Shown here: positions 27,130-28,326 of the stretch, piece by piece
How positions within the stretch are numbered: position 1 is the first letter of the stretch
Layout of the letters: each line of letters begins with the position of its first letter
Virus record (IMG/VR): IMGVR_UViG_3300032132_000748
Origin: a virus
Lineage: Duplodnaviria > Caudoviricetes
Strand: one strand, 5' to 3'
Length of the DNA: 64,000 nucleotides
The notes under the pieces: model-generated
The model's input: the letters and a program-made list of their open reading frames with translations, nothing else
The model's database searches: none
Told to the model about the DNA's origin: nothing
Position numbers and translations under genes: made by a program

Positions 27130-28326
27130 ATGGCAGAAATGTTTGAGCGGAATAAGCCGCACGTCAATATTGGCACAATTGGGCACATCGCCCACGGAAA
27201 AACAACTCTTACCTCAGCTATCACTAACGTATTAGCTGAGCACGGTAAGGCCGCAGCAAAATCTTATGAAGAAATCGCTGGTAAAAGAGGTATCCGACGT
27301 AAGGAAGGCGGAGAACGTATCGCTACGGTAACCGCAGACCACGTTGAATACGAAACAGCAAGCCGCCACTATGCACACGTTGACTGCCCAGGTCACGCCG
27401 ACTATATCAAGAACATGATTACCGGTGCCGCCCAGATGGACGGCGGTATTTTGGTAGTTTCTGCTGTTGATGGCCCTATGCCTCAAACCCGTGAGCATAT
27501 TTTGCTTGCACGTCAGGTCGGTGTTCCGGCTCTTGTCGTAGCAATTAATATGGTTGATATGGTTGAGGACCAGGATCTAATTGAATTAGTCGAGGAAGAG
27601 GTTAAAGAGCTTTTGGAGCTTTACCAATTCCCTTCTGAGGAGATTCCATTTATTCGAACCAATGCTTTTGGCGCTAATCATGGCGATGCCGAAGCCCAAG
27701 AAGGTATACGCAAGTTAATGGCTGCTGTGGATGAGTACATCCCAACACCATCTCGCGATACCGAGAAGGACTTCCTAATGCCAGTGGAAAACGTTAATCA
27801 GATTCCCGGTCGTGGAACGGTTGCAACCGGACGAATCGAGCGAGGCGTTATTAACAAGGGTGATTCACTTGAGTTAGTAGGTCTCCGAGAGACGCAAACA
27901 ACTGTTTGTACGGGTATCCAAATGTTCCACAAGGAATTGGCTCAGGGCGAGCCAGGGGATAACGTCGGACTCTTGCTTCGTGGTCTTAAGGGTGAAGATA
28001 TTGAGCGAGGCCAAGTTTTGGTTAAGCCAAAGTCTGCAACTCCACATACCAAGTTCACGGCGCAGGTTTATGTCTTAAAGAAAGACGAAGGTGGGCGTCA
28101 CACCCCGTTCTTCACTGGCTATCAACCTCAGTTCTTCTTCAGGACAACTGACGTGACCGGTAGCGTTGAATTAGCGGGCGACGTAGAGATGTGTCTGCCT
28201 GGTGACCATGTTACCGTTGTAGTTACTCTTCAGAAGCCAATCGCTATCGAAGAGCAACTTCGATTCGCCGTTCGTGAAGGTGGCAAGACTGTAGCCTCCG
28301 GCTCAGTTGTTTCTATTCTAGAGTAG
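27130..28326 (+). CDS. tuf: Elongation factor Tu with divergent GTPase motifs
   Basis: [78 protein letters not shown]. Confidence 0.97.

What the first reader, a model, noticed from the sequence alone, without database searches (positions are those of the whole stretch)
27130..28326. Phage EF-Tu with substitutions in normally invariant GTPase motifs
Seen versus canonical EF-Tu: P-loop GHVDHGKT is GHIAHGKT (D21A); G4 NKxD is NMVD (K136M); G5 SAL is NAF; switch I PEEKARGITI is replaced by a basic [18 protein letters not shown]. His84 and domains 2 and 3 are conserved. Established: D21 contributes to ribosome-stimulated GTP hydrolysis, K136 to guanine binding, and RGITI is the site cut by the Lit defence protease. 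Inference: an EF-Ts-independent or defence-resistant factor, a dominant-negative or decoy, or a specialised carrier for the tRNA-like RNAs.
Basis: partly seen in the sequence, partly recalled or inferred. Interest (0 to 1): 0.78.

Follow-up and report, generated by a model that had tools for sequence, protein, structure and literature searches.

The report
Host-type EF-Tu variant in huge phage
A huge, probably phage genome carries a translation factor lacking several 'invariant' GTP-binding residues, but its likely host group's everyday copy lacks them too, so it is most likely a working factor and not a decoy; the changes peculiar to the phage lie in the pocket that grips the tRNA's amino acid.

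Summary
The ORF is an intact EF-Tu (TIGR00485 above cut-off; dN/dS about 0.03), and the listed motif changes are real. They are not a phage invention. A Planctomycetota lineage carries D21S, K136M, D50A and the lengthened basic switch I in its housekeeping tuf (tRNA-tuf-secE-nusG locus); it is the only tuf found in three MAGs, and these genomes keep EF-Ts. The phage clade (27 proteins) nests in that lineage (100/95), and the phage PrkA points to the same hosts. T61, R58 and H84 are kept; the NAF motif is nearly private. D21 loss goes with D50 loss in several phyla, which suggests a co-adapted GTPase centre. Truly phage-specific: I60A, S65D and the aminoacyl pocket (D216, F218, often E259Q, R262H). 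D216 is Asp in 161/161 housekeeping copies but replaced in most phage and accessory copies. The scan found this pocket pattern before in another phage (e1-5360129). Best reading: a captured, working elongation factor, retuned for tRNA binding or to escape EF-Tu-directed host factors. No biochemical test was possible.

The parts
27130..28326 (+). tuf gene, EF-Tu, 398 aa, three domains
   Evidence: TIGR00485 609 bits, cut-off 522; model TM 0.93 to 1EFT and 1TTT; dN 0.062, dS 2.1 against P0002
27181..27204 (+). G1/P-loop with D21A (host lineage D21S)
27277..27342 (+). Lengthened basic switch I: D50A, G59I (host-inherited), I60A and S65D (phage clade only); R58, T61, H66 kept; Arg57 (own numbering) invariant in 46 phage and host rows
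   Evidence: low pLDDT at residues 52-69
27382..27396 (+). G3/switch II with catalytic His84, unchanged
27547..27558 (+). G4 motif with K136M (host-inherited); N135 and D138 kept
27661..27669 (+). G5 motif NAF, shared only with the sister phage protein P0002
27787..27801 (+). Aminoacyl pocket strand of domain 2: E215 kept, D216N, F218N (phage-specific)
27919..27930 (+). A76/CCA-end contacts: E259Q, R262H; F261 kept
27062..27123 (+). Leader with two GC-rich hairpin-like blocks and the AGGAG ribosome-binding site; partly conserved in the sister phage
   Evidence: structure not established
28344..28374 (+). 12-bp hairpin with TTCG loop and short T run after the stop, probable terminator
   Evidence: read from the sequence; not listed by the consensus scan; similar hairpins follow tuf in L149 and L190

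Best explanation
A working EF-Tu that an ancestor of these huge phages captured from a Planctomycetota lineage whose own EF-Tu already ran without D21, D50, G59 and K136. During infection it binds GTP, is probably recycled by host EF-Ts, and delivers aminoacyl-tRNAs (phage- and host-encoded) to host ribosomes, adding to or replacing host EF-Tu. After capture the phage clade changed the aminoacyl-end pocket (D216, F218, E259, R262), which either retunes affinity for the phage's large tRNA set or removes a surface used by host inhibitors. Shown: identity, ancestry, purifying selection, which residues are inherited and which are new. Inferred: activity, EF-Ts use, purpose of the pocket changes, and how catalysis copes without D21 (possibly a basic switch I side chain, such as the invariant Arg, replacing the monovalent cation that D21 and G59 bind; the cation model is from memory, Kuhle and Ficner 2014).
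For: Host lineage has the same G-motif changes at the tRNA-Thr/Tyr/Gly/Thr-tuf-tRNA-Trp-secE-nusG-rplK locus, the only tuf found in G003, G004, G005; a single-chromosome Planctomycetota genome has one tuf, with D21A and the long switch I. Trees without the motif columns nest the phage clade (99/99) with that lineage (100/95). Phage PrkA scores 937-949 bits with the five D21S/K136M genomes and at most 886 with ten others. K24, T25, T61, D80, H84, N135, D138, the tRNA-stem contacts and the EF-Ts face are kept. dN/dS about 0.03. Relatives sit in tRNA arrays beside a release factor and a synthetase. With canonical G59, D21 goes with D50 in 68/68 rows, and D21A with D50N in 32 of 35 (31 counted plus one misparsed row). 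D216 mutants of E. coli EF-Tu work and widen amino-acid tolerance (PMC6386890).
Against: In E. coli, D21A costs 4-5 kcal/mol in GTP hydrolysis on the ribosome (PMC4620562), and no compensating change is demonstrated; host sarcin-ricin nucleotides 2655, 2658 and 2659 are unchanged. The phage adds I60A, S65D and E259Q, which no housekeeping copy examined has as a rule, so host function does not prove phage function. The D21S/K136M hosts are MAGs of unknown completeness and could hide a canonical tuf; G002 has a second, partly seen copy. This gene itself lies among nucleotide-metabolism genes, not in a tRNA array.
Confidence: 0.72

Rival explanations
1. Working factor whose main purpose is counter-defence: it keeps elongation going after a host system cleaves, modifies or binds host EF-Tu, and the phage-only changes (I60A, S65D, domain 2 pocket, R327) exist to escape that system. 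A special case of the best explanation, not exclusive of it.
For: EF-Tu is a defence target or cofactor: Lit cuts G59-I60 after Gol binds domains II-III (PMC3014915); type IV Thoeris cuts after R45 and R59 in Met-inclusive numbering (bioRxiv 2024.10.24.620036); TreTu modifies D21 and D21A is immune (PMC9825190); Avs7 binds domains II-III (PMC13581612). A second phage clade changes the same near-invariant positions: 8 of 11 overlap with 30 of 168, p = 5e-5.
Against: Loss of D21 and G59 is shared with the host, so it gives the phage copy no advantage there. The Arg-rich loop would be a better, not worse, substrate for an Arg-specific caspase. D216 is also lost in chromosomal second copies and Streptomyces tuf3-like genes, so it marks accessory copies in general; shared relaxed constraint could give the same overlap. 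No such defence system was looked for in the hosts.
Confidence: 0.25
2. Decoy or dominant-negative: binds EF-Ts, tRNA or a defence protein but does not deliver tRNA.
For: E. coli K136 mutants bind nucleotide poorly and can trap EF-Ts (from memory, Hwang et al. 1989; paper not held). E259 is Glu in 161/161 housekeeping rows but Gln here.
Against: K136M and D21S are in the hosts' essential copy. All catalytic and tRNA-stem residues are kept over a clade down to 67% identity. Blocking elongation would hurt the phage, and relatives are co-located with tRNAs and a release factor.
Confidence: 0.1
3. Specialised carrier for the tRNA-like RNAs at 37348-37735.
For: The sister phage keeps one similar RNA about 4 kb downstream of its tuf, and single odd-loop tRNA-like genes occur near three other phage tuf genes. 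The aminoacyl pocket is altered.
Against: The same substitutions occur in phages where tuf is surrounded by ordinary tRNAs. The RNAs differ from tRNA in the anticodon arm, which EF-Tu does not touch (established structure); T-stem contact residues are unchanged. They lie 9 kb away.
Confidence: 0.05
4. EF-Ts-independent factor with fast spontaneous GDP release caused by K136M and the G5 change.
For: K136 and S173 line the guanine pocket (established); Met at this G4 position is normal in FeoB, which releases GDP fast (from memory, not verified here).
Against: Hosts with K136M keep tsf; the EF-Ts-facing residues are conserved in the phage clade; G5 Asn is absent from 24 of 27 members. Weaker GDP binding may still hold as a matter of degree.
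Confidence: 0.12

Closest known systems
Bacterial EF-Tu (TIGR00485; E. coli TufA, PDB 1EFC/1OB2; Thermus 1EFT/1TTT)
   Same: Three-domain fold (TM 0.93), K24, T25, T61, D80, H84, N135, D138, tRNA-stem and EF-Ts contacts; about 60% identity.
   Different: D21A, D50A, G59I, I60A, S65D, K136M, S173N, a switch I five residues longer and basic, D216N, F218N, E259Q, R262H, R327Q.
Housekeeping EF-Tu of an unnamed-class Planctomycetota lineage (MAGs such as JAGQRJ, RFHU, JAHBXY, JBFWYD)
   Same: 69-73% identity; D21 and D50 lost, G59 hydrophobic, K136M, F133A, A270P, V350C, net +3 switch I.
   Different: Host keeps I60, S65, D216, F218, E259, R262, R327, G384 (28/28); GC3 about 0.9 against 0.44 in the phage gene.
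EF-Tu genes of huge phages (Al-Shayeb et al. 2020, PMC7162821; IMG/VR loci L009-L026; scan finding e1-5360129)
   Same: Phage-borne, usually in tRNA arrays; D216, F218, E259, R262 often changed the same way.
   Different: Those keep D21 and NKxD (15/15) and form a separate long-branch clade; a joint origin is not rejected by the AU test (p 0.13).
Accessory chromosomal EF-Tu copies (Streptomyces EF-Tu3/actEF-Tu, PMC4342817; Planctomycetota second copies L306-L308, L164)
   Same: Extra copy outside the ribosomal operon with D216 replaced.
   Different: Chromosomal; all keep E259; actEF-Tu has another origin. Three host-lineage second copies are related to the phage clade and more degenerate (G4 begins with Thr).
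Engineered EF-Sep, EF-pY and D216A variants (PMC6386890)
   Same: D216 neutralised and F218 replaced to accept acidic or bulky amino acids.
   Different: They also change H66, E215 or N273, which the phage keeps; they are laboratory constructs.

Membership tests
EF-Tu (TIGR00485) | Score above the equivalog cut-off over the full length | tested here: met
   609.2 bits against 522.4, residues 3-398
EF-Tu (TIGR00485) | G domain plus two beta-barrels | tested here: met
   Pfam architecture; model pLDDT 82, TM 0.93 to GTP-form structures
EF-Tu (TIGR00485) | Catalytic core K24, T25, T61, D80, G83, H84, N135, D138 | tested here: met
   All kept in 27/27 clade members
EF-Tu (TIGR00485) | Textbook signature D21, RGITI, NKxD | tested here: not met
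   Absent, but also absent from housekeeping tuf of the host lineage, so not defining in nature
EF-Tu (TIGR00485) | Aminoacyl pocket H66, E215, D216, F218, T228, E259, F261, N273 | tested here: inconclusive
   H66, E215, T228, F261, N273 kept; D216, F218, E259 changed
EF-Tu (TIGR00485) | GTP-dependent delivery of aminoacyl-tRNA to the ribosome | not testable with these tools
   Needs biochemistry
SelB / specialised tRNA carriers | Score above TIGR00475 cut-off and C-terminal mRNA-binding extension | tested here: not met
   150 bits against 242; no extension, 398 aa
Pseudo-GTPase or decaying copy | Loss of catalytic residues or relaxed selection | tested here: not met
   dN/dS about 0.03; core residues invariant
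Huge phage genome | Terminase or capsid gene on the contig | not tested
   None identified in the window; phage status rests on PHROG-type polA and dNMP kinase, tuf without its operon, and an 859-kb contig

The most novel reading that the evidence does not exclude
EF-Tu of this host lineage and its phages hydrolyses GTP by a different route, with a switch I Arg or Lys acting in cis in place of the D21/G59-bound cation, and the phage copy's remodelled aminoacyl pocket gives the phage a private elongation channel that is blind to host EF-Tu-directed defences or accepts aminoacyl-tRNAs that host EF-Tu rejects.
Probability: 0.2. Interest if true: 0.78.

Novelty: new variant of a known kind. Interest (0 to 1): 0.5.

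Why it matters
D21 and K136 are taught as essential and invariant in EF-Tu, yet an apparently essential copy lacks both, and D21 is lost together with D50 in several phyla. These natural variants make the debated catalytic role of D21 directly testable. The near-universal loss of D216 in phage and accessory copies (kept in 161/161 housekeeping rows) points to an unexplained selective pressure on the amino-acid pocket, of interest for phage control of translation and for genetic-code expansion. The gene also assigns a host group to very large phages of a poorly known phylum. The decoy or counter-defence reading of the G-motif changes does not hold up.

Tried and rejected
No whole genome is held for the window, so a phage tsf, terminase or capsid could not be searched. 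Pattern scans of viral contigs for the altered P-loop found no EF-Tu; the clade is known only from metagenome protein hits. The metagenome scan returned mostly canonical EF-Tu, used as references. The phage collection held only canonical host-like tuf at 56-64% identity, no clade member. The sigma factor did not discriminate among candidate hosts. Domain-wise trees gave no sign of a mosaic with the other phage clade. The AU test did not reject a joint clade of the two phage groups (p 0.13), so independent origin of the pocket changes is favoured, not proven. No RNA holder listed. No compensating change at the sarcin-ricin nucleotides near D21. The structure model cannot place switch I (pLDDT under 50). 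No complex job with EF-Ts was sent: a textbook pair would pass by likeness. Literature searches found no description of this variant, but most subscription papers are not held; Hwang 1989, Maracci 2014, Olsthoorn-Tieleman 2007 and Kuhle and Ficner 2014 could not be read. Assembly error rejected.

Full report
Observation. Window 27130-28326 (+) is an open frame of 398 codons with a ribosome-binding site. It scores 609 bits on TIGR00485 (cut-off 522) and folds as closed, GTP-form EF-Tu (pLDDT 82, TM 0.93 to 1EFT and 1TTT; switch I residues 52-69 unresolved). A second assembly of probably the same marine sample shows no differing letters.

Setting. The gene lies between thymidylate synthase and DHFR, with no ribosomal-protein genes, on an 858,992-bp contig. 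The window also holds a PHROG-type polA and dNMP kinase, IF3, a class II synthetase core, DnaJ, two PrkA and SpoVR. I take it to be a huge phage; no terminase or capsid was tested. EF-Tu genes in huge phages are already known (PMC7162821).

The changes are a clade property. The protein search gave 26 close relatives (67-91% identity) with D21A/S and K136M. The six whose context I read are phage-like: a syntenic sister, runs of small unknown genes, and tuf inside arrays of 19-34 tRNA genes beside a release factor and, in two, a synthetase. Against the sister gene dN is 0.062 and dS 2.1: strong purifying selection.

They come from the host lineage. The next-best hits (68-73%) are cellular. Two read in context sit at tRNA-Thr/Tyr/Gly/Thr-tuf-tRNA-Trp-secE-nusG-rplKAJL-rpoB, the housekeeping site. 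In 28 such rows D21 is Ser 28/28, D50 Ala 28/28, G59 Ile or Val, K136 Met 26/28, and the switch I charge is +2 to +3 as in the phage. It is the only tuf found in MAGs G003, G004 and G005; G001, G006 and G007 have second copies that are more degenerate, not canonical; G002 has a partly seen second copy. A single-chromosome Planctomycetota genome has one tuf, with D21A and the long switch I but NKxD kept. All nine genomes keep EF-Ts. In trees built without the motif columns the phage clade (99/99) groups with this lineage (100/95). Independently, the window's PrkA scores 937-949 bits with five genomes of the lineage and at most 886 with ten others. The long switch I is common in the phylum (15 of the 25 best-scoring full-length copies), and D21A also occurs in Chloroflexota, Patescibacteria, Myxococcota and Verrucomicrobiota (rows were selected by pattern, so these are not frequencies).

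How can it work without D21? In E. coli D21A raises the barrier by 4-5 kcal/mol (PMC4620562). The natural variants do not carry it alone: among rows with canonical G59, D21 goes with D50 in 68/68, while D21A goes with D50N in 32 of 35 (one row misparsed there); with the long switch I, D50 is Ala in nearly all. These rows are kin and stand for only a few origins. T61, R58, D80 and H84 are kept everywhere, and one Arg of the long loop is invariant in 46 phage and host rows. From memory (Kuhle and Ficner 2014, not held): D21 and the G59 carbonyl bind a catalytic monovalent cation, and eIF2-gamma has Ala here and uses an Arg finger; two archaeal IF2-gamma-like hits with Ala at this place turned up. 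A basic side chain replacing the cation is therefore my preferred mechanism. It is inference only. The sarcin-ricin nucleotides that enclose D21 are unchanged in the hosts.

What is really phage-specific. Absent from all 28 host rows: I60A (26/27), S65D (27/27), D216N/G/S (27/27), F218C/N/H (27/27), E259Q (16/27), R262H (25/27), R327 replaced (25/27), G384A (25/27). D216 and E259 are unchanged in 161/161 housekeeping rows. A second jumbo-phage clade that keeps D21 and NKxD has D216 changed in 11/15, F218 in 12/15, E259Q in 14/15 and R262H in 12/15; of 168 near-invariant positions the clades change 11 and 30, with 8 shared (p 5e-5). D216 is also lost in 7/7 other accessory copies and 4/4 Streptomyces tuf3-like genes. 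R262 alone is not diagnostic, since housekeeping copies vary there. The tree separates the two phage clades, but the AU test does not reject their union (p 0.13). These residues line the amino-acid and A76 pocket; D216 and F218 are mutated in EF-Sep and EF-pY to admit acidic or bulky residues (PMC6386890), and they overlap the GE2270A site (PMC8183687). I reached this; the scan had reported the same pattern for another phage (e1-5360129), which is not independent support.

Rivals. Counter-defence remains plausible as a purpose (Lit, type IV Thoeris, TreTu and Avs7 all act on EF-Tu), but the D21 and G59 losses give no edge over the host copy, and no relevant host system was identified. Decoy, EF-Ts independence and carrier of the tRNA-like RNAs are each weakly supported for the reasons listed above.

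Verdict. A genuine, selected EF-Tu; a new variant of a known kind. Interest 0.5: the natural loss of D21/D50/K136 in an apparently essential EF-Tu and the recurrent pocket remodelling are testable and, as far as the held literature shows, undescribed, but phage EF-Tu is known, the pocket pattern was already noted in this scan, and no activity is shown.

Noticed in passing
source contig of the window (L189, ENA ERZ27248692 k141_839137): 858,992 bp, longer than the 735-kb record quoted in PMC12607003. If truly one phage genome it is among the largest known; completeness and hallmark genes not tested.
   Followed up: partly
window 37348-37735: Five tandem tRNA-like genes, most with lengthened anticodon stems and 8-nt AT-rich loops, no encoded CCA; the sister phage keeps a clear counterpart (L149:15457-15534), and single odd-loop genes lie near tuf in L014, L166, L191.
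   Followed up: partly
window 10137-16236: Two PrkA genes plus SpoVR; the 704-aa PrkA is 62-63% identical to that of the inferred host lineage.
   Followed up: partly
L157, L164, L165 (G001, G007, G006): Host-lineage genomes carry a second, degenerate tuf related to the phage clade (G4 begins with Thr, D216 replaced; one split in two frames, one with a long switch I insert), possibly returned from phages.
   Followed up: partly
L031-L145 (Chloroflexota, Patescibacteria): EF-Tu with D21A plus D50N and I60L in an otherwise canonical switch I.
   Followed up: partly
L273-L276: Host 23S rRNA has U2666/U2667 at the base of the sarcin-ricin loop where E. coli has C/C (E. coli state from memory); distribution not checked.
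   Followed up: no
window 27062-27123: Structured leader before tuf partly conserved in L149; possible translational control.
   Followed up: partly
window 17321-19030 and 32894-33619: Ro60/TROVE gene and a stand-alone class II synthetase core of 241 aa.
   Followed up: no
L278 (GCA_043955405.1, 400 kb): A phage-like contig with 34 tRNAs around tuf is filed inside a Nitrospira MAG, probably mis-binned.
   Followed up: no
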